DNA of 20,419 nucleotides from a virus (lineage: Duplodnaviria; Heunggongvirae; Uroviricota; Caudoviricetes). The stretch covers positions 1 to 20,419 of the IMG/VR virus record IMGVR_UViG_2565956729_000008, one strand, 5' to 3'. Numbering within the stretch: the first letter of the stretch is position 1; every line of letters begins with the position of its first letter. Both the position numbers and the translations under genes were made by a program. Below the pieces are notes generated by a model that saw nothing but the letters and a program-made list of their open reading frames with translations, was not told where the DNA came from and made no database searches. Below, piece by piece: positions 4,453 through 17,842 of this stretch.

Positions 4453-5601
4453 ATGACCTGGCCATCTGTCACGATTGAACAGTACAACACGTTCAGTAGC
4501 TCGCCGGACGGCGTGGAAAATACGCTGCTGTTTGTGGGCAATGCACAAAACAACAAAGGTAAGGTTCTGCCGGTCAATGCCAACAGTGATCTGGATGAAT
4601 TGCTGGGAACGAACGCCAGCCCGCTGAAGAATTTCCTTCAGTCAGCACTGACCAATGCCGGACAGAATGCCTTTTTCTATGTTGCCGTTCTGCCGGAAGC
4701 AGGCAGGGGCAAAGAAGCGACGCCAGCCTGCCAGGCATGGCAGAACGCCGTACTGGCGGCTCAGGAAACTGTTTCAGTTGAAGGCGTGGTGATCACCGAG
4801 CCGGTCAGCACGAAGGATGATATCAACGCCATACAGGCGTTACGTCAGACCATCATCAATAAATATCAGCGCCGCATCTGGTTCATCCTGACCATCGCCG
4901 CCAACAACCACAGCAAAACCTGGGCGGAATACGTTGCCGAACTGACCGCACTACAGAAAGGCATTGCAGCCCCGCAGGTCATGCTGGTTCCGGAGATTTT
5001 TGGATTTGAACCGGGCGTTCTTGCTGGTCGCCTGTGTAACAGCGCCGTCACCATTGCTGACAGTCCGGCACGTGTGGCAACCGGGGCGCTGTCCGCACTG
5101 AAAACCACAGAGCGCCCGAAGGACAGCGCGGGACAGGCAATTGATCTCGCCACCCTGCAGGCGCTGGCAACCGCCCGCTACAGCGTGCCCATGTGGTATG
5201 CCGACTATGACGGCCTTTACTGGGCCGACGGCGTGACACTTGAGGTGGAAGGCGGGGACTACAACGTCATCGAACATGTCCGCATTGCTGATAAGGTGGC
5301 GCGCCGCGTACGGCTGATGGCCATCCCCAAAATTGCCGATCGCTCACTGAACAGCACACCGGGCAGCATTGCCGCACATGAAACGCTGTTTGCCCGCCCG
5401 CTGCGTACCATGGCGAAATCCACGCAGATTAACGGTGTCACCTTTCCGGGCGAAGTGAAATCGCCACAAAAAGGCGATGTGGCCATCACCTGGCAGGACG
5501 AAAAGACGGTCAGCATCAGCATTGTTGTCCGCCCTTACGCCTGCCCCAAAACCATCAAAGTGGGCATTCAGCTGGACAAATCTCTGGAGGAGAACGCATG
5601 A
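4453..5601 (+). CDS. Putative contractile tail sheath protein (not the P2 FI family)
   Basis: ATG at 4453 is preceded by AGGAG with 7-nt spacing; the track start at 4321 is an upstream in-frame extension overlapping the previous gene. 382 aa, immediately before a ~150-aa tube-like gene and upstream of chaperone and tape measure, the canonical sheath position. No recognisable similarity to P2 FI. Confidence 0.5.
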   Translation: MTWPSVTIEQYNTFSSSPDGVENTLLFVGNAQNNKGKVLPVNANSDLDELLGTNASPLKNFLQSALTNAGQNAFFYVAVLPEAGRGKEATPACQAWQNAVLAAQETVSVEGVVITEPVSTKDDINAIQALRQTIINKYQRRIWFILTIAANNHSKTWAEYVAELTALQKGIAAPQVMLVPEIFGFEPGVLAGRLCNSAVTIADSPARVATGALSALKTTERPKDSAGQAIDLATLQALATARYSVPMWYADYDGLYWADGVTLEVEGGDYNVIEHVRIADKVARRVRLMAIPKIADRSLNSTPGSIAAHETLFARPLRTMAKSTQINGVTFPGEVKSPQKGDVAITWQDEKTVSISIVVRPYACPKTIKVGIQLDKSLEENA

Positions 5602-6053
5602 CAACCCGCATTAACGGCATGGCCTTTGATGTTTATGTTGGCGGAACGGATATCCGCGTAAAAAACATTTCGCTGGATATCAGCGACGAAAGCGCCGTGG
5701 CCAAAACCCGTGGCATCCCTGACGGCAAACTGCGCGGCCCTGTCAGTGCCGAAGGTGAAATCGAAATGAGTACCCGCAGCTTTAACCAGCTCGGGGAAGT
5801 GGCGGCTCAGGCGGGATCGTGGCGTGACCTGCCGCCAATGGATTTTGTGTTTTACGCCAACACGGGCACCGAAGAAATCCGCGTTGAAGCCTTCGGTTGC
5901 GAGCTGATGCTTTCGAACCTGTTAAGCATTGACACCGAGAGCGCGGATCTGACCACGCACAAAATCAAGTACGTGGTGGCAAGCCCTGACTTTGTGCGTA
6001 TCAACGGCGTGCCCGTTCTCTCAGAGAACGACGTGCGCGGGCTGATGGGGTAA
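5598..6053 (+). CDS. Putative tail tube protein
   Basis: 151-aa ORF, start overlapping the sheath stop (ATGA), GGAGGAG upstream. Size and position typical of myovirus tube proteins. Confidence 0.5.
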   Translation: MTTRINGMAFDVYVGGTDIRVKNISLDISDESAVAKTRGIPDGKLRGPVSAEGEIEMSTRSFNQLGEVAAQAGSWRDLPPMDFVFYANTGTEEIRVEAFGCELMLSNLLSIDTESADLTTHKIKYVVASPDFVRINGVPVLSENDVRGLMG

Positions 6054-6804: not shown

Positions 6805-6810
6805 TTTTAC

Positions 6811-6842
6811 GCTTAATAAGCCTTCCTGCAGGCTTATTAAGC
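6811..6842 (+). terminator. Perfect 12-bp stem / 8-nt loop hairpin after the lysis genes (weak terminator or attenuator)
   Basis: GCTTAATAAGCC-TTCCTGCA-GGCTTATTAAGC, followed by the T-rich stretch CCTCTTATTCTT. It begins 7 bp after the endolysin stop. The T-tract is imperfect, so termination is probably partial. Confidence 0.35.
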
Positions 6843-6868
6843 CCTCTTATTCTTGACATTAACAGGAC

Positions 6869-7162
6869 ATGATGATGAACGATAAAAACACCCAAACCAC
6901 CGCAGAGAACGCCATCACTTTACAGGTCGGCGAGCATGAACTGACGTTTATCCCGACGGTGAAAGACTACAACGACCTGCAGAACGACTTCATGCCGGAC
7001 AATAAAATTGCACCGCTGAAAAACTACCTGCGCCGCATCGTGATTAAAGAGCACCGCGATCTGCTGAACCAGTTGCTGGAAAAACCGGGAATGCCGGCCA
7101 GTCTGGCAACTGCCGTGAATAACGAGTTTGTGCCGGAAGTGGAAATCACCGTAAAAAAATAA
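6869..7162 (+). CDS. Tail assembly chaperone, short form (E/G-like)
   Basis: 97-aa acidic protein immediately upstream of the tape measure. Three consecutive ATGs at 6869-6877 with AGGA at 6864-6867, so the true start is probably 6872 or 6875. Ends GTA AAA AAA TAA. Confidence 0.6.
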   Translation: MMMNDKNTQTTAENAITLQVGEHELTFIPTVKDYNDLQNDFMPDNKIAPLKNYLRRIVIKEHRDLLNQLLEKPGMPASLATAVNNEFVPEVEITVKK

Positions 7163-7350
7163 AAAGCCATCTGAGGGCCATTGATCGCAATGACCTTACC
7201 AGGATGCTGATCCTGCGCCGCCACTGGCTGCCCGGTGAAGATGATTCACCACAGTCACTGGCTGCTGCCGTCTGGCTGGATAACCACTACTGGGAAAATA
7301 TGGGTATCGCCGTCAATAACGGCATTATCCGCGCCTTTAAGGGAACGTAA
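6869..7350 (+). CDS. Tail assembly chaperone, long form via programmed -1 frameshift (E+E'-like)
   Basis: Slippery heptamer A AAA AAA at 7153-7159 sits directly before the zero-frame stop. The -1 frame from 7159 is open for 62 codons (IKSHLRAIDRND...IIRAFKGT) with no ATG, and its TAA at 7348-7350 overlaps the tape-measure ATG at 7350. I checked the frame codon by codon. Confidence 0.55.
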
Positions 7351-9446
7351 TGTCACAACAGCGCCTTGAATTACTTCTTGAACTGACAGACCGCCTGACA
7401 AGGCCGTTACGCGCAGCCGGGCGACAGGTTCAGGGATTTGCTGCAACAAGTCGGGGAGCTTTTCGGGACATTGCTACCGGAGGCGCTGCGCTCTGGGGAG
7501 TGGGTGCAGCCATTCAGGGCGCACTGATGCCAGCCATTGAAATGGACAGGGCGCTCGGTGAGGTGAAATCACTGGGCGTCGCAGAGTCCGGACTGCGTAA
7601 ACTCAGCCGCGCCGCCGTTGATTTCACTATGGAATACGGCGGAGCTGCGCAGGATTTTGTGCGTGCTTCTTACGACATCCAGTCAGCCATTGCCGGGTTA
7701 ACTGACGATGAGCTGTCCCGCTTCACCACCGCATCAGCAACAGTGGCAGCAGCAACCAAATCCAGCAGCCAGACCATTACCGCCTACATGGGCACCATGT
7801 ACGGCATATTTAAAGACCAGGCTGATGCCATGGGAAAAAGTAAATGGGTGGAGCAGATCGCCGGACAAACCGCCACTGCCGTGCAAATGTTTAAAACAAC
7901 CGGCGATAACATGTCAGCGGCATTCACCACACTGGGTGCCAGCGCAAAAGCAGCCGGTATTGATGCGGCCGAGCAGTTCGCCGTACTGGGGCAACTGCAG
8001 GCAACCATGAGTGGCAGCGAGGCTGGTACAAAATATAAATCCTTCCTGGCATCCGTTGGTAAAGCACAGAAAAAGCTGGGGCTTAATTTCGTGAATAAAG
8101 ACGGCACGATGAAAAGTGTTGTCGAGATCATGAAACTTATCAGGGGCAAATTTGGTGATCTGTCAAAAGTGGCTGACTCTGATTTGCTGAAAAGCGCTTT
8201 TGGCTCCGATGAGGCTGTGGCCATGATTAAATTGCTCAATGCAGACATTGGCGGACTGGAAAAGAACATCGCCACGCTGGGCAATATCAAAGGTATGGAT
8301 AAGGCTGTCGAAATGGCACAAGCCATGGCCGATCCGTGGGAACAGGCCGCTGCGATTATTAACGGCATTCGCATTGAAATTGGCACACAACTGTTACCCG
8401 TTCTGTATCCATTCATCCAGAAAAGCAACGAAGGCGGTAAATCCTTTGTTGCCTGGTTGCGTCTGTATCCAAACATCACACGTGCAATCGGCTTATTAAG
8501 CGCGGCACTTATTGGTGTTGCGGCGGTTGGCGCAACGGTCAATATCGTAATGGGGGTGGCGAAATTTATCTGGGTGGGATTACGCATGGTCTGGATGGCC
8601 GCAATCGCACCACTGAAATTAATCATCTTTCTGTATCGTGCCCTGAAAGTGGTTATGCTGGCGTTCTGTGCTACTGCCCGCATGGTCAGGGCATTATATC
8701 TGGCGATGAGTATCGCCATGGGGGCGCACAATGTCAGGGCCAAAATTCAGATTGCACTGCTGAAACTGCAACGCATCGGTATGTGGCTTTATTCTGCCGC
8801 ACTGGGCGCTGCAGCTGTGGCCATGAAAATTTATACCGCTGTTACCGGTGGCGCAGCCGTTGCCACTCAGCTACTTTTCAGCCCGATAACGTTAATCATC
8901 CTGGCACTGGCTGCGCTGGGCGTGGGCATTTATTTTCTGATTACCCGCTGGGATGAGATCAAAGCGGCACTGATGGATACAGCCGCTTTTCAGTGGGTAA
9001 CCAGTGTCATAAAAAATATAGCTGTATGGTTCGGCAATACCTGGAAAGGCATTAAAAGCGGCTGGGATGCCGTTATTAATTATTTTTCCACCCGCTCACC
9101 GCTGGAAATATTTCAGGATTATGTCCGTCTGATTAATAAATTATTTTCAGGACTATGGCGCACAATTATCGGTATGTTCAGCTCAGCATTCAGATGGATT
9201 GCTGACAAGCTGAATATGCTCCCGGGTATAAATATTGATGTACCAGAAATTACAGATAACAGTGAGGGTTCTGTATTAACCGGTGGAAAAGTTATTAGCG
9301 CCGGGCCAGGTGGCATTGCGGCAAAAATGCAAAATAACAGCGACAGCCAGACCACAATTGATAACTCCCGTCGCGTGGTCAATGTCAATGTGCAGGATGC
9401 ATCCCCGGCCCACCTTAATGAATGGATGGAGCTGCATGCATACTGA
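7350..9446 (+). CDS. Tail tape measure protein
   Basis: 698 aa, Ala/Gly-rich and helical in the N-terminal half, with several long hydrophobic segments in the C-terminal half. Positioned directly after the frameshifted chaperone. Confidence 0.85.
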   Translation: MSQQRLELLLELTDRLTRPLRAAGRQVQGFAATSRGAFRDIATGGAALWGVGAAIQGALMPAIEMDRALGEVKSLGVAESGLRKLSRAAVDFTMEYGGAAQDFVRASYDIQSAIAGLTDDELSRFTTASATVAAATKSSSQTITAYMGTMYGIFKDQADAMGKSKWVEQIAGQTATAVQMFKTTGDNMSAAFTTLGASAKAAGIDAAEQFAVLGQLQATMSGSEAGTKYKSFLASVGKAQKKLGLNFVNKDGTMKSVVEIMKLIRGKFGDLSKVADSDLLKSAFGSDEAVAMIKLLNADIGGLEKNIATLGNIKGMDKAVEMAQAMADPWEQAAAIINGIRIEIGTQLLPVLYPFIQKSNEGGKSFVAWLRLYPNITRAIGLLSAALIGVAAVGATVNIVMGVAKFIWVGLRMVWMAAIAPLKLIIFLYRALKVVMLAFCATARMVRALYLAMSIAMGAHNVRAKIQIALLKLQRIGMWLYSAALGAAAVAMKIYTAVTGGAAVATQLLFSPITLIILALAALGVGIYFLITRWDEIKAALMDTAAFQWVTSVIKNIAVWFGNTWKGIKSGWDAVINYFSTRSPLEIFQDYVRLINKLFSGLWRTIIGMFSSAFRWIADKLNMLPGINIDVPEITDNSEGSVLTGGKVISAGPGGIAAKMQNNSDSQTTIDNSRRVVNVNVQDASPAHLNEWMELHAY

Positions 9447-16548: not shown

Positions 16549-16572
16549 CATTTGAACGTACAGGAAAATGAG

Positions 16573-17295
16573 ATGAAATATTCTGTATGGGAGCACGCCA
16601 TTCTGCGCCCGGCCCCCATGGCCATCACCTGTTCAATGGTTTGCCTCCATCCATGGTCAGAAAATACGGGAAACATTACACCATCGGGGCGTTATCTCAG
16701 CCCGGATAATGCTGTATCCGCGCTTTTACCTTATCTGACAGAAAGCACTGAAAAAGACGTTGTGGCGCTGTTATTTTGCGCCCCGTCTGCAGGCGAGTTT
16801 TTATCACTGGCCAGACAGTTTTCAGGTGCACTTCCATTGCCGGAAGTGGGAAGAATGTCCCGCATGATCTCCAGCCAGCTTTCGCTGGCCGTGAGTAAAA
16901 TGCAGCTCCCTGCAAAACCTGTAACCACACTTCCTGCAGAGGTCACGCTGTCCACACAGACCATCCGCAGCATGACGCGGGCAGCGACTATTGCGCAGGC
17001 TGCGATCCCGACCGCTGTATCTCCGGAAACATTATCCTCGTCTCTGAATCAGTTCAGAATCGCGAGAGATAAGGCACTACAGGAAATCACCGACCAGCAG
17101 GCCGCAATTCAGAAAAACACGTGTCCGGTGTGGCGTTTTTTTTATACGGGCACACTAAATCAGGTTGCAGCACTGATAAAAAAAAATATTCCACATCCGG
17201 AATGGGTTTTTACAGCTGTGATGCTGTTTGTCGGTAATGATCTTTCATCACTAAGAGAATCACTACATGACCCAGATGATCGTTCTTGCACTTGA
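16573..17295 (+). CDS. Hypothetical protein (orphan, no recognisable family)
   Basis: About 240 aa from the ATG at 16573, preceded by AGGAAAA; the track uses a TTG at 16552. Tightly packed between the second fiber gene and the U-like gene with a 3' overlap. Low-complexity Ser/Thr/Ala-rich middle region. Confidence 0.4.
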   Translation: MKYSVWEHAILRPAPMAITCSMVCLHPWSENTGNITPSGRYLSPDNAVSALLPYLTESTEKDVVALLFCAPSAGEFLSLARQFSGALPLPEVGRMSRMISSQLSLAVSKMQLPAKPVTTLPAEVTLSTQTIRSMTRAATIAQAAIPTAVSPETLSSSLNQFRIARDKALQEITDQQAAIQKNTCPVWRFFYTGTLNQVAALIKKNIPHPEWVFTAVMLFVGNDLSSLRESLHDPDDRSCT

Positions 17296-17842
17296 CGGGG
17301 AAGCCATTCTGTTACGCAACATCATCGTCAGCGCCACCATGCAACTACCGGATAAAGATATGTCCGGACAGTCAACCAGCACCACCAGTGCCCAGCAGGG
17401 AAGCAAGGCTAAAGAGCTGCGTGTATCAGGCGTCATTGATTTTAATGATGAAGCTGTTCTGACCCGTATATTTCAGCTTGCAGAAGCCACAGAAAGCAAC
17501 GGGGCTAAAAAAACATACCGCATCGCCAACGCTACTGCTAAGGCGATTAATATGCGACAGGGTGTTTTTTCGGGCGGCATTGATGCCACGGAACAACAGG
17601 GCAAGATGCACTGGCAGGTCACCTTTACTCTCAGGGAAAAATTAAGCGTGCCGGAAAAAGCATCGGCACGCAGTGGCTCACAGAAAACAATCGCAAAGCA
17701 GCAAACACAGAACGGCAGTGAGCAGGCACCGGATAAAGGAATGAATACCCAGGAGACTTTCTGGAAAAATATCAATGATGGTATTGGCTCCGGGCTGGAC
17801 TGGATTGGCATCGGGAGCGTGAAAGAGGAAGGGAAAACATGA
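17267..17842 (+). CDS. Putative tail protein (GpU-like)
   Basis: 191 aa; alternative start at 17276 (MIVLALDGE). Loose pattern resemblance to P2 GpU. Directly precedes the hub/spike-like gene, as U precedes D in P2. Confidence 0.4.
   Translation: MTQMIVLALDGEAILLRNIIVSATMQLPDKDMSGQSTSTTSAQQGSKAKELRVSGVIDFNDEAVLTRIFQLAEATESNGAKKTYRIANATAKAINMRQGVFSGGIDATEQQGKMHWQVTFTLREKLSVPEKASARSGSQKTIAKQQTQNGSEQAPDKGMNTQETFWKNINDGIGSGLDWIGIGSVKEEGKT

What the first reader, a model, noticed from the sequence alone, without database searches (positions are those of the whole stretch)
7153..7350. Programmed -1 frameshift in the tail chaperone
A seven-A run at 7153-7159 sits directly before the zero-frame stop. 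The -1 frame is open for exactly 62 codons, has no start codon of its own, and ends on a TAA that overlaps the tape-measure ATG. This is the conserved chaperone frameshift of tailed phages (lambda G/GT, P2 E/E'), here in an unusually clean form with the stop codon adjacent to the slip site.
Basis: partly seen in the sequence, partly recalled or inferred. Interest (0 to 1): 0.45.

Follow-up and report, generated by a model that had tools for sequence, protein, structure and literature searches.

The report
Tail chaperone -1 frameshift, HP1-like prophage
This is the ordinary, well-known trick by which tailed phages make a short and a long version of their tail-assembly chaperone by letting a few ribosomes slip back one base, found here in an HP1-like prophage whose slipped-frame part public databases still list as a separate protein of unknown function.

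Summary
The sequence features are real. The 97-codon chaperone gene (6869-7162, Pfam Phage_TAC_10) ends GTA AAA AAA TAA, so A_AAA_AAA (7153-7159) is a slippery heptamer in the correct phase. The -1 frame runs from there to a TAA (7348-7350) that overlaps the tape-measure ATG (7350).

Two details are wrong. The extension is 63 codons, not 62. It also contains an in-frame ATG at 7204, which RefSeq uses to call a separate 48-aa "DUF6890 family protein".

Comparative evidence strongly supports a programmed -1 ribosomal frameshift:
- In 24 of 24 diverse HP1-group phages (Haemophilus, Pasteurella, Vibrio, Aeromonas, Pseudomonas, Pseudoalteromonas, enterics; 30-65% protein identity) the heptamer A_AAA_AAN is in phase. 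In the 23 compared column by column, T-AAAAAA is invariant.
- The DUF6890 domain always lies in the -1 frame.
- Codon periodicity switches frame exactly at the heptamer.
- No start codon of its own is conserved.

The arrangement works like lambda G/GT and P2 E/E+E', but shows no detectable sequence homology to either. One related phage record (ACA1) already annotates this frameshift. It is a new member of a known kind, of low interest. The only added value is that DUF6890/phrog_7050 should be read as the frameshift extension of Phage_TAC_10 chaperones. No experiment was done.

The parts
6869..7162 (+). Tail assembly chaperone gene (G/E-like short product, 97 aa; start could also be ATG 6872 or 6875)
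   Evidence: ORF list and translation. Pfam Phage_TAC_10 E = 2.7e-25, 88.8 bits against a cut-off of 25.7. phrog_1214. Annotated 'putative phage tail assembly chaperone' in 95%-identical E. coli prophages.
7153..7159 (+). Slippery heptamer A_AAA_AAA in X_XXY_YYZ phase (zero frame GTA AAA AAA)
   Evidence: Sequence. A_AAA_AAN in phase in 24/24 relatives, with T-AAAAAA invariant in 23/23 aligned loci. It is kept in Aeromonas and Pseudomonas phages, where AAA is only 10-23% of Lys codons and GTA 6-14% of Val codons. A7 identical in 26 matched sequences, window plus close relatives.
7160..7162 (+). Zero-frame stop TAA directly after the heptamer (ends the short product; possible pause element)
   Evidence: Sequence. 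The stop is adjacent in 21/24 relatives. It is maintained through the rare Ile codon ATA, or through CTA/CTG, as the first -1 codon.
7159..7350 (+). -1 frame extension: 63 codons plus TAA. With the chaperone it gives a predicted 160-aa fusion, ...EITVKK-IKSHLRAIDRN...
   Evidence: Translation. tblastn finds it in the -1 frame in every related locus. Third-position wobble pattern in the -1 frame starts right after the heptamer.
7213..7344 (+). DUF6890 domain (PF21830; phrog_7050) within the extension; inferred T/E'-like domain
   Evidence: Pfam DUF6890 E = 1.7e-22 to 2.9e-23 on extension residues 19-62. phrog_7050 E = 1e-28. In a library of 1.84 billion representative proteins it is found only as small stand-alone calls of 28-67 aa with variable N-termini.
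7204..7206 (+). In-frame ATG inside the extension, used by automatic annotation as the start of a 48-aa 'DUF6890 family protein'; probably just an internal Met codon
   Evidence: RefSeq annotation of the 95%-identical locus. The upstream sequence atgaccttaccagg has no Shine-Dalgarno at normal spacing (read by eye). In 5 of 24 relatives the first ATG/GTG/TTG of the extension comes only at codon 24-52, inside the domain (P05B, Yen324, Edwardsiella ictaluri, ACA1, PY3).
7172..7198 (+). Predicted RNA hairpin 12 nt downstream of the heptamer (possible weak stimulator; not established)
   Evidence: MFE fold of 7153-7260: -31.2 kcal/mol, z = -2.3. It sits only at the 15th percentile of local 50-nt windows. 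No consensus structure and no significant covariation in the enteric clade.
7350..9446 (+). Tape measure protein gene, whose ATG overlaps the stop of the extension (TAATG)
   Evidence: ORF list. Pfam PhageMin_Tail E = 1.5e-29. Annotated as tape measure in relatives.
5598..6053 (+). Tail tube gene (context: inferred binding partner of the extension domain, by analogy with lambda gpV/T)
   Evidence: Pfam Phage_HP1_Orf24 E = 1.7e-50. The partner role is inference from the lambda model summarised in PMC5009743.

Best explanation
The window carries the tail module of an HP1-like (Peduoviridae) prophage of enterobacteria.

Inferred mechanism:
- Most ribosomes translating the chaperone gene (6869-7162) stop at TAA 7160 and release a 97-aa chaperone, equivalent to lambda gpG or P2 gpE.
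- A minority slip back one nucleotide on A_AAA_AAA (7153-7159). The two tRNA-Lys re-pair from AAA-AAA to AAA-AAA one base upstream.
- These ribosomes read ATA AAA AGC... in the -1 frame for 63 more codons and terminate at TAA 7348, which overlaps the tape-measure start.
- The result is a 160-aa fusion of Phage_TAC_10 and DUF6890.

Inferred function, by analogy with lambda G/GT: both products coat the tape-measure protein through the shared N-terminal part. The DUF6890 extension recruits the tail tube protein, so that tube and sheath polymerise around the tape measure. Neither product would stay in the virion. The fixed low slip rate would set the ratio of short to long product.

Shown here: the anatomy, the domain identities, and strong evolutionary conservation of the slip site, the frame relationship and -1 frame coding.

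Inferred, not shown: that the fusion is made, its abundance, and its binding partners.
For: - The heptamer is in correct phase and the stop is adjacent. The -1 ORF ends at the tape-measure ATG.
- The upstream ORF is Phage_TAC_10, the extension is DUF6890, and the next gene is the tape measure.
- tblastn finds both halves in two frames in 52 phage records.
- In 24/24 representative loci the extension is in the -1 frame and A_AAA_AAN is in phase. T-AAAAAA is invariant in the 23 aligned loci, while flanking codons vary and protein identity falls to 30-40%.
- The heptamer persists against codon bias in GC-rich hosts.
- Column information by codon position is [1.06, 1.29, 0.46] in frame 0 upstream. 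It is [0.87, 1.00, 0.41] in frame -1 for the 45 nt directly after the heptamer. So the linker, which precedes any possible own start in the window, is under protein-coding selection in the -1 frame.
- The -1 frame is closed by a stop only 10-40 nt upstream of the zero-frame stop in all 23 tabulated loci.
- Own start codons are not conserved.
- DUF6890 never occurs as an in-frame domain of a larger protein among 40 representative clusters.
- The GenBank record of the related phage ACA1 already annotates a joined CDS with 'projected programmed frameshift analogous to P2'.
- The general G/GT mechanism and its wide conservation are summarised in PMC5009743.
Against: - There is no experimental evidence for the fusion protein in this phage group. 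None was found in four targeted full-text searches.
- The window does contain an in-frame ATG (7204) that could in principle give an independent 48-aa product.
- In E. coli, A_AAA_AAA is much less shift-prone than A_AAA_AAG (PMC5009743).
- No convincing stimulatory RNA structure or upstream Shine-Dalgarno element could be shown for this window.
- There is no detectable sequence homology to the experimentally studied G/GT or E/E+E' proteins. The functions assigned to the two domains therefore rest on synteny and analogy.
Confidence: 0.85

Rival explanations
1. DUF6890 is an independent small gene, as RefSeq annotates it. It would be translated from its own start (ATG 7204 in the window) into a 48-aa protein. 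The A-run before the chaperone stop would be incidental.
For: - An in-frame ATG lies at 7204.
- NCBI's pipeline and several phage records annotate a stand-alone 46-59-aa protein.
- All 40 representative database entries are small stand-alone calls.
- Codon 16 of the extension is ATG, GTG or TTG in 12 of the 24 loci.
Against: - Five of 24 relatives have no ATG/GTG/TTG before codon 24-52 of the extension, that is inside the domain.
- The annotated N-termini vary.
- No Shine-Dalgarno lies at functional spacing before 7204 (read by eye).
- Coding periodicity in the -1 frame begins at the heptamer, 45 nt before this ATG.
- The heptamer is invariant at synonymous sites against codon bias, which an independent gene would not require.
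Confidence: 0.04
2. The same fusion protein is made mainly by transcriptional slippage. RNA polymerase would add one extra A in the A7 run, giving mRNAs with A8 that read straight through into the DUF6890 frame.
For: - A homopolymeric A7 run is present.
- An A8 transcript would encode exactly the same ...VKKIKSHLR... product (worked out from the sequence).
- Transcriptional slippage on A/T runs is a known route to frameshifted products in bacteria (topic of PMC5009743).
Against: - Eleven of 24 relatives have only A6 (A_AAA_AAC or A_AAA_AAG), and none has more than A7.
- What is conserved is the ribosomal heptamer with a free Z position, not run length.
- From my own knowledge, not checked here: efficient bacterial RNA polymerase slippage generally needs runs of about 8-9 or more.
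Confidence: 0.06
3. The slip is termination-coupled single-tRNA slippage rather than classical tandem slippage. With tRNA-Lys (or tRNA-Asn) in the P site and the adjacent stop codon waiting in the A site, slow release-factor recruitment lets the P-site tRNA slide back one base. The stop would be part of the signal. The product is identical.
For: - The zero-frame stop is adjacent to the heptamer in 21/24 loci.
- It is kept by using the locally rare Ile codon ATA in 12/13 A7 loci (ATA is 0-16% of Ile codons in most of them).
- It is kept by CTA/CTG in all A_AAA_AAC loci.
- Two of the three loci without an adjacent stop carry A_AAA_AAG, the heptamer that is intrinsically most shift-prone in E. 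coli (PMC5009743).
Against: - The full heptamer, including the wobble A of the Val/Leu codon at position 1, is invariant. Single-tRNA slippage would not need this.
- ACA1 has A_AAA_AAA without an adjacent stop.
- The adjacency could instead reflect a constraint on the C-terminus of the short protein.
- The loci are phylogenetically related, so the counts overstate independence.
Confidence: 0.15
4. This is an artefact or pseudogene. A single chaperone-DUF6890 gene would have been split by a one-base homopolymer error or mutation in this sequence.
For: Homopolymer runs are typical sites of sequencing and replication indels.
Against: - The identical A7+TAA is found in all 26 sequences (window plus close relatives from independent assemblies) that matched the junction pattern.
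- The two-frame arrangement is found in all 24 divergent phages, including classical isolates such as HP1, K139, F108 and phiO18P.
- No in-frame full-length version exists among the database representatives.
Confidence: 0.01

Closest known systems
Phage P2 E / E+E' tail chaperone frameshift (Christie et al. 2002, PMID 12426340, cited in the ACA1 record; annotated in NC_001895)
   Same: - Both are in the same virus family (Peduoviridae), with a contractile tail.
- A roughly 91-97-aa chaperone ORF lies immediately before the tape-measure gene.
- A homopolymeric -1 heptamer sits at its end (P2: T_TTT_TTG; here: A_AAA_AAA).
- A roughly 57-63-codon -1 extension ends in an overlap with the tape-measure start.
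- In both, the extension is also mis-called as a small stand-alone protein by automatic annotation ('GpE family phage tail protein' there, 'DUF6890 family protein' here).
   Different: - The Pfam families differ. P2 has Phage_TAC_7 + Phage_P2_GpE; this locus has Phage_TAC_10 + DUF6890.
- Profile comparison gives no significant similarity (E = 0.24-0.35).
- The P2 zero-frame stop is 6 codons after the heptamer; here it is adjacent.
- Here the lysis cassette (holin, M15 endolysin) sits between the tube and chaperone genes.
Phage lambda G / GT
   Same: The logic is the same. A low-level -1 slip near the end of the chaperone gene yields a fusion, and its extension ends at the tape-measure gene. 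The mechanistic model is that G coats the tape measure and the T domain recruits the tube protein, at a ratio of about 30:1 (PMC5009743).
   Different: - Lambda is a siphovirus.
- Its heptamer is G_GGA_AAG.
- G is 140 aa and T 144 aa, against 97 and 63 here.
- There is no sequence similarity.
- The function of the DUF6890 domain is untested.
Pseudoalteromonas phage ACA1 gp36/gp36a (OR438928) and HP1 orf26
   Same: Both are true homologues (Phage_TAC_10 + DUF6890, 33-43% identity) with the same heptamer position. The ACA1 record already annotates the joined frameshift CDS.
   Different: - In ACA1 the zero frame runs 7 codons past the heptamer.
- The HP1 record annotates only orf26 and leaves the extension unannotated.
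- Neither has experimental evidence that I could find.
E. coli dnaX gamma/tau frameshift (A_AAA_AAG)
   Same: Both use a lysine-codon heptamer in a gamma-proteobacterial host, read by the single tRNA-Lys (PMC5009743).
   Different: dnaX uses the much shiftier A_AAG A-site codon, plus an upstream Shine-Dalgarno and a downstream hairpin, to reach about 50%. Here the heptamer is the weaker A_AAA_AAA, no stimulators could be demonstrated, and the -1 product is extended rather than truncated.

Membership tests
G/GT-type tail assembly chaperone with programmed -1 frameshift (functional class of Xu, Hendrix & Duda 2004) | Pair of overlapping ORFs located between the tail tube gene and the tape-measure gene, directly upstream of the latter | tested here: met
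   Gene order is tube 5598-6053, holin, M15 endolysin, chaperone 6869-7162, extension to 7350, tape measure 7350-9446. A lysis cassette is inserted between tube and chaperone, as in HP1.
G/GT-type tail assembly chaperone with programmed -1 frameshift (functional class of Xu, Hendrix & Duda 2004) | Slippery heptamer X_XXY_YYZ in zero-frame phase within the overlap | tested here: met
   A_AAA_AAA at 7153-7159 with zero-frame codons GTA AAA AAA. A_AAA_AAN is in phase in 24/24 relatives.
G/GT-type tail assembly chaperone with programmed -1 frameshift (functional class of Xu, Hendrix & Duda 2004) | Second ORF in the -1 frame without a conserved start codon or ribosome-binding site of its own | tested here: met
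   The extension is in the -1 frame in all loci. Start codons are not conserved, and in 5/24 the first one lies inside the domain (codon 24-52). The window's ATG 7204 lacks a Shine-Dalgarno.
G/GT-type tail assembly chaperone with programmed -1 frameshift (functional class of Xu, Hendrix & Duda 2004) | The arrangement is conserved among relatives despite sequence divergence, with coding selection in the new frame from the slip site onward | tested here: met
   24/24 loci across 8 or more host genera share it. Periodicity switches frame at the heptamer.
G/GT-type tail assembly chaperone with programmed -1 frameshift (functional class of Xu, Hendrix & Duda 2004) | Fusion protein actually produced at low ratio and required for tail assembly | not testable with these tools
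   Needs a reporter assay, proteomics or genetics. Four targeted literature searches found no experimental report for this group.
Pfam Phage_TAC_10 (PF10963) | HMM score above the gathering threshold over the full model | tested here: met
   88.8 bits against a cut-off of 25.7, model positions 1-82 of 82.
Pfam DUF6890 (PF21830) | HMM score above the gathering threshold over the full model | tested here: met
   79.3-81.8 bits against a cut-off of 23.6, model positions 1-44 of 44, on the -1 frame extension.
P2 E/E+E' sequence family (Phage_TAC_7 + Phage_P2_GpE) | Detectable sequence or profile homology to P2 gpE and the E' extension | tested here: not met
   No Pfam hit to PF10109 or PF06528 in the extensions scanned at E up to 10, nor in the full fusion at E up to 0.01. 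hhalign of a 24-sequence family profile against P2 E+E' gave E = 0.24, and against a GpE-family alignment E = 0.35. It is an analogue, not a member.
Lambda G/GT sequence family | Detectable sequence or profile homology to lambda gpG/gpT | tested here: not met
   hhalign E = 0.52 for the fusion and 0.09 for the extension against T.
Transcriptional-slippage recoding sites | Long homopolymeric run (about 8-9 or more A/T) conserved as a run rather than as a phased heptamer | tested here: not met
   A7 here, A6 in 11/24 relatives, never more than 7. The length threshold itself comes from my own knowledge.
Stimulated -1 frameshift sites (dnaX/IS type) | Conserved downstream hairpin or pseudoknot 5-9 nt after the heptamer, and/or an upstream Shine-Dalgarno-like element | tested here: inconclusive
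   - The window hairpin 7172-7198 has a 12-nt spacer and z = -2.3, but lies only at the 15th percentile locally.
- 9/23 loci fall below the 10th percentile, chiefly the Vibrio group.
- There is no consensus structure and no significant covariation.
- An upstream GGAG-like motif occurs in only some loci.

The most novel reading that the evidence does not exclude
The stop codon placed directly after the heptamer is an integral, selected part of the frameshift signal in HP1-group phages. It would act as a termination pause that boosts slippage on the intrinsically weak heptamers A_AAA_AAA and A_AAA_AAC. It would become dispensable where the strong A_AAA_AAG is used (Pseudomonas phages).

DUF6890 would then be an obligately frameshift-accessed tube-recruiting domain that never exists as an in-frame domain or as an independent protein.

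The evidence is only correlative:
- 21/24 loci have an adjacent stop.
- The rare ATA codon is used in 12/13 A7 loci.
- Two of the three exceptions have A_AAA_AAG.
Probability: 0.2. Interest if true: 0.35.

Novelty: new member of a known kind. Interest (0 to 1): 0.2.

Why it matters
The main value is for annotation. RefSeq/PGAP, Pfam (DUF6890) and PHROGs (phrog_1214 and phrog_7050, both 'unknown function') treat the two halves as unrelated small proteins. The comparative evidence here says DUF6890 is the -1 frameshift extension of Phage_TAC_10 chaperones throughout HP1-like Peduoviridae. On that reading it is the functional counterpart of lambda T and P2 E'.

This gives a testable function to a domain of unknown function. 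It would also let gene callers annotate a joined CDS in many prophages of Escherichia, Salmonella, Yersinia, Vibrio, Aeromonas, Haemophilus and Pseudomonas.

Biologically it adds nothing new in kind. The conserved tail-chaperone frameshift has been known since 1993 and 2004.

Tried and rejected
- **Homology to known chaperones.** hhalign of a 24-sequence fusion profile, and of the extension profile, against P2 E+E', lambda GT and a 60-sequence GpE-family alignment gave nothing significant (E = 0.07-0.5). A by-eye 'HW.P.E...SL....W' resemblance between DUF6890 and P2 E' is therefore not claimed.\n- **Structure.** AlphaFold2 on the chaperone with a 9-sequence alignment gave pLDDT 53 and pTM 0.32, which is too poor for fold searches, so none was run. 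A sequence search of PDB gave nothing below E = 0.45.\n- **Downstream stimulatory RNA.**\n - The single-sequence fold suggested a hairpin.\n - It is not exceptional against local background.\n - RNAalifold found no consensus structure.\n - Pair counting showed no significant covariation: 84-148 of 500 shuffles reached the observed values.\n - Hairpins in other lineages are not in the same register.\n- **Upstream Shine-Dalgarno-like stimulator.** A GGAG/GGAA motif 8-12 nt upstream is only partly conserved and coincides with conserved Glu-Ile codons. It is not claimed.\n- **Natural in-frame fusions as 'Rosetta stone' evidence.**\n - None was found among the 40 representative clusters.\n - The one fused protein found (P0004, Salmonella) is a 185-nt deletion derivative lacking half the chaperone, not a true fusion.\n- **Literature.** There were no papers for 'DUF6890' or 'PF10963'. 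Nothing was found on HP1 with frameshift and chaperone. The P2 paper (PMID 12426340) is not held. The ACA1 paper does not discuss the frameshift in its text.\n- **Nucleotide search of the phage collection.** megablast of the region found no close phage. Close relatives are prophages in E. coli genomes and IMG/VR contigs.\n- **NCBIfam.** No model matches either half.
Full report
**1. What is in the sequence**

Region 6869-7162 (+) is a 97-codon ORF ending ...GAA ATC ACC GTA AAA AAA TAA.
- The seven-A run is at 7153-7159, exactly as reported.
- In the zero frame it reads GT-A AAA AAA. It is therefore a canonical X_XXY_YYZ slippery heptamer (A_AAA_AAA) in the right phase.
- The stop TAA (7160-7162) is the next codon.
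- The -1 frame ends at TAA 7348-7350. This shares its last A with the ATG (7350) of a 698-codon gene.

Two details in the finding are wrong.
- The extension has 63 sense codons after the slip (7159-7347), and 75 codons between the flanking -1 frame stops at 7120 and 7348. It is not 62.
- The -1 frame does contain a start codon, an in-frame ATG at 7204.

An A7 run is not unusual in itself. The window has 9 matches, against 7.2 +/- 3.5 in shuffles.

**2. Gene identities and context**

- Pfam identifies the 97-aa ORF as a tail assembly chaperone (Phage_TAC_10, E = 2.7e-25).
- The downstream gene is a tape measure protein (PhageMin_Tail, E = 1.5e-29).
- The -1 frame extension is DUF6890 (E = 1.7e-22, full model).
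- Upstream lie a DUF2586 sheath-like protein, an HP1 Orf24-type tube protein, a holin and an M15 endolysin.
- Further upstream are the P2-type scaffold, capsid, small terminase, head completion, gpR and gpS genes.
- Downstream are baseplate J, a P2 gpI-like protein, tail fibres and a fibre assembly protein.
- The window is therefore the late region of an HP1-like member of the Peduoviridae.
- The 1.3 kb around the finding is 95% identical to prophages in 41 of 5,426 complete E. coli genomes. RefSeq annotates those as two separate genes, 'putative phage tail assembly chaperone' and a 48-aa 'DUF6890 family protein' starting at the equivalent of ATG 7204.
- PHROGs lists both halves as 'unknown function' (phrog_1214, phrog_7050). 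NCBIfam has no model for either.

**3. Comparative test of the frameshift**

tblastn of the hypothetical 160-aa fusion against 50,697 phage records found 76 records. In 52 of them both halves are present as two pieces. The hosts were Vibrio, Escherichia, Pseudoalteromonas, Pseudomonas, Salmonella, Pasteurella, Aeromonas, Haemophilus, Yersinia and Cronobacter.

I fetched 18 of these, among them HP1, K139, F108, phiO18P, phi3, ACA1, SI7, ESSI2-like and YenM324. I added Edwardsiella and IMG/VR relatives.

- In every locus the extension lies in the -1 frame relative to the chaperone.
- In 24 of 24 representative loci the chaperone ORF carries [G/C]TA AAA AAN in phase.
- The -1 frame opens only 10-40 nt upstream of the zero-frame stop and closes at or just before the tape-measure start.
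- In a gap-free nucleotide alignment of 23 loci, positions -1 to +5 (T-AAAAAA) are invariant. Position 7 is A (13), C (8) or G (2). Neighbouring codons vary freely, and the proteins are only 30-65% identical.
- The heptamer is maintained against codon bias. In the Aeromonas and Pseudomonas phages AAA is only 10-23% of Lys codons and GTA 6-14% of Val codons.
- Column information by codon position is [1.06, 1.29, 0.46] in frame 0 upstream of the heptamer.
- It becomes [0.87, 1.00, 0.41] in frame -1 for the 45 nt immediately downstream. It is [1.04, 1.22, 0.45] over the DUF6890 domain.
- Protein-coding selection therefore switches frame exactly at the heptamer. It covers the linker that precedes any possible independent start in the window.
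- The A7+TAA is identical in the 26 sequences (window plus close relatives) that matched the junction pattern, which excludes a homopolymer sequencing error.

**4. The stand-alone-gene rival**

- Codon 16 of the extension is a hydrophobic position. It happens to be ATG in the window and in several relatives, and GTG or TTG in others.
- In five loci (Aeromonas P05B, Yersinia YenM324, Edwardsiella ictaluri, and Pseudoalteromonas ACA1 and PY3) the first ATG/GTG/TTG appears only at codon 24-52. That is inside the DUF6890 domain, which begins at codon 19.
- The window's ATG is preceded by ...ccttaccagg, which has no properly spaced Shine-Dalgarno (read by eye).
- Database entries for DUF6890 are all 28-67-aa calls with ragged N-termini. 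This is what gene finders produce when they take the first available start in an ORF that has none of its own.
- I rate independent initiation as the main route at about 4%.

**5. Mechanism**

The conserved element is the phased heptamer with a free Z position. This is the signature of ribosomal tandem slippage.
- Transcriptional slippage would yield the same protein. However, 11 of 24 relatives have only A6 and none has more than A7.
- In E. coli, A_AAA_AAA and A_AAA_AAC are much less shift-prone than A_AAA_AAG (PMC5009743). That fits the low-level frameshift typical of G/GT systems: about 30:1 in lambda and 2-3-fold higher in P2 (PMC5009743).
- I could not establish a stimulator.
  - A hairpin is predicted at 7172-7198 (z = -2.3), but it is only at the 15th percentile of local windows.
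  - It shows no significant covariation.
  - Strong hairpins 0-8 nt after the heptamer do exist in the Vibrio lineage and a few others: 9 of 23 loci fall below the 10th percentile.
- One pattern may be meaningful. The zero-frame stop is adjacent to the heptamer in 21 of 24 loci.
  - It is kept there by the locally rare Ile codon ATA in 12 of 13 A7 loci, and by CTA or CTG in all A_AAA_AAC loci.
  - Two of the three exceptions have the strong heptamer A_AAA_AAG.
  - This could mean the stop is part of the signal, or simply that the short protein must end at KK/KN.
  - The loci are not phylogenetically independent, so I treat this as a hypothesis.

**6. Function (inferred)**

The model comes from lambda (PMC5009743).
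- The shared chaperone part would bind the tape measure protein.
- The frameshift-only domain (here DUF6890) would recruit the tube protein (5598-6053) to start polymerisation.
- Both products would leave the finished tail.
- None of this is shown for the HP1 group.

**7. Comparison with known systems**

- P2 E/E+E' (NC_001895) has the same layout. It has a 91-aa E, the heptamer T_TTT_TTG, a 57-codon -1 extension overlapping the tape-measure start, and an extension that RefSeq also calls separately ('GpE family phage tail protein').
- The families differ, however. P2 has Phage_TAC_7 + Phage_P2_GpE; this locus has Phage_TAC_10 + DUF6890.
- Profile comparisons with P2 E+E', the GpE family and lambda GT are all non-significant.
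- So it works like G/GT and E/E+E' without being a sequence member of either family.
- Within its own family, the GenBank record of Pseudoalteromonas phage ACA1 already carries a joined CDS 'projected programmed frameshift analogous to that in phage P2'. The idea is therefore not new even for this group.
- I recall that Xu et al. 2004 surveyed myoviruses including P2-like phages, but I could not check whether HP1 was listed.

**8. Verdict**

- It is a new member of a known kind.
- Its only added value is to reclassify DUF6890/phrog_7050 as the frameshift extension of Phage_TAC_10 chaperones.
- Interest is 0.2.

Noticed in passing
window 7027-7036 and 7212-7221; protein P0004: A 10-bp direct repeat, CCTGCGCCGC, occurs in the chaperone (frame 0, LRR) and again in the DUF6890 region (frame -1, LRR), 185 nt apart. 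A Salmonella Montevideo protein (P0004, 96 aa) is exactly the deletion product between these repeats. It is an in-frame fusion of chaperone residues 1-54 to DUF6890, presumably from a defective prophage.
   Followed up: partly
window 6811-6842 (gap 6805-6868): A perfect 13-bp inverted repeat (GCTTAATAAGCCT..AGGCTTATTAAGC) with a weak T-tail lies between the M15 endolysin and the chaperone gene. Relatives carry Rz-like spanin genes at this position, but this prophage and its E. coli relatives have none annotated.
   Followed up: no
window 17136-17143 and 17178-17186: A T8 run and an A9 run lie inside ORF 16552-17295 (phrog_31292/phrog_1677, unknown function), close to its overlap with ORF 17267-17842. 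These are longer homopolymers than the one in the finding and could be slippage-prone.
   Followed up: no
L039, L041, L045, L040 (Vibrio phages), about 2-40 nt after the heptamer: The Vibrio members have very stable 9-14-bp hairpins starting 2-7 nt after A_AAA_AAA (-21 to -27 kcal/mol, below the 1st percentile of local windows). This suggests a lineage-specific frameshift stimulator that the enteric clade lacks.
   Followed up: partly
L048 (K139, NC_003313) 632-1210; L031 (HP1) 1456-1634: Public records of classical phages mis-annotate or omit this locus. K139 orf30 as annotated (193 aa) runs through the chaperone gene and begins far upstream of it, and the DUF6890 extension is unannotated. 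HP1 annotates orf26 only. The sequence shows CTA AAA AAC TAA in K139 and GTA AAA AAC TAA in HP1, each followed by DUF6890 in the -1 frame.
   Followed up: partly
24 related loci, first codon after the heptamer: The first -1 codon is the rare Ile codon ATA in 12/13 A7 loci, and CTA or CTG in all A_AAA_AAC loci. This keeps a zero-frame stop adjacent in 21/24. Two of the three loci without an adjacent stop use A_AAA_AAG.
   Followed up: partly
window 6869-6877: The chaperone ORF begins with three consecutive ATG codons after AGGAC. Database homologues are annotated with 93-97 aa, so the true start (6869, 6872 or 6875) is ambiguous.
   Followed up: no
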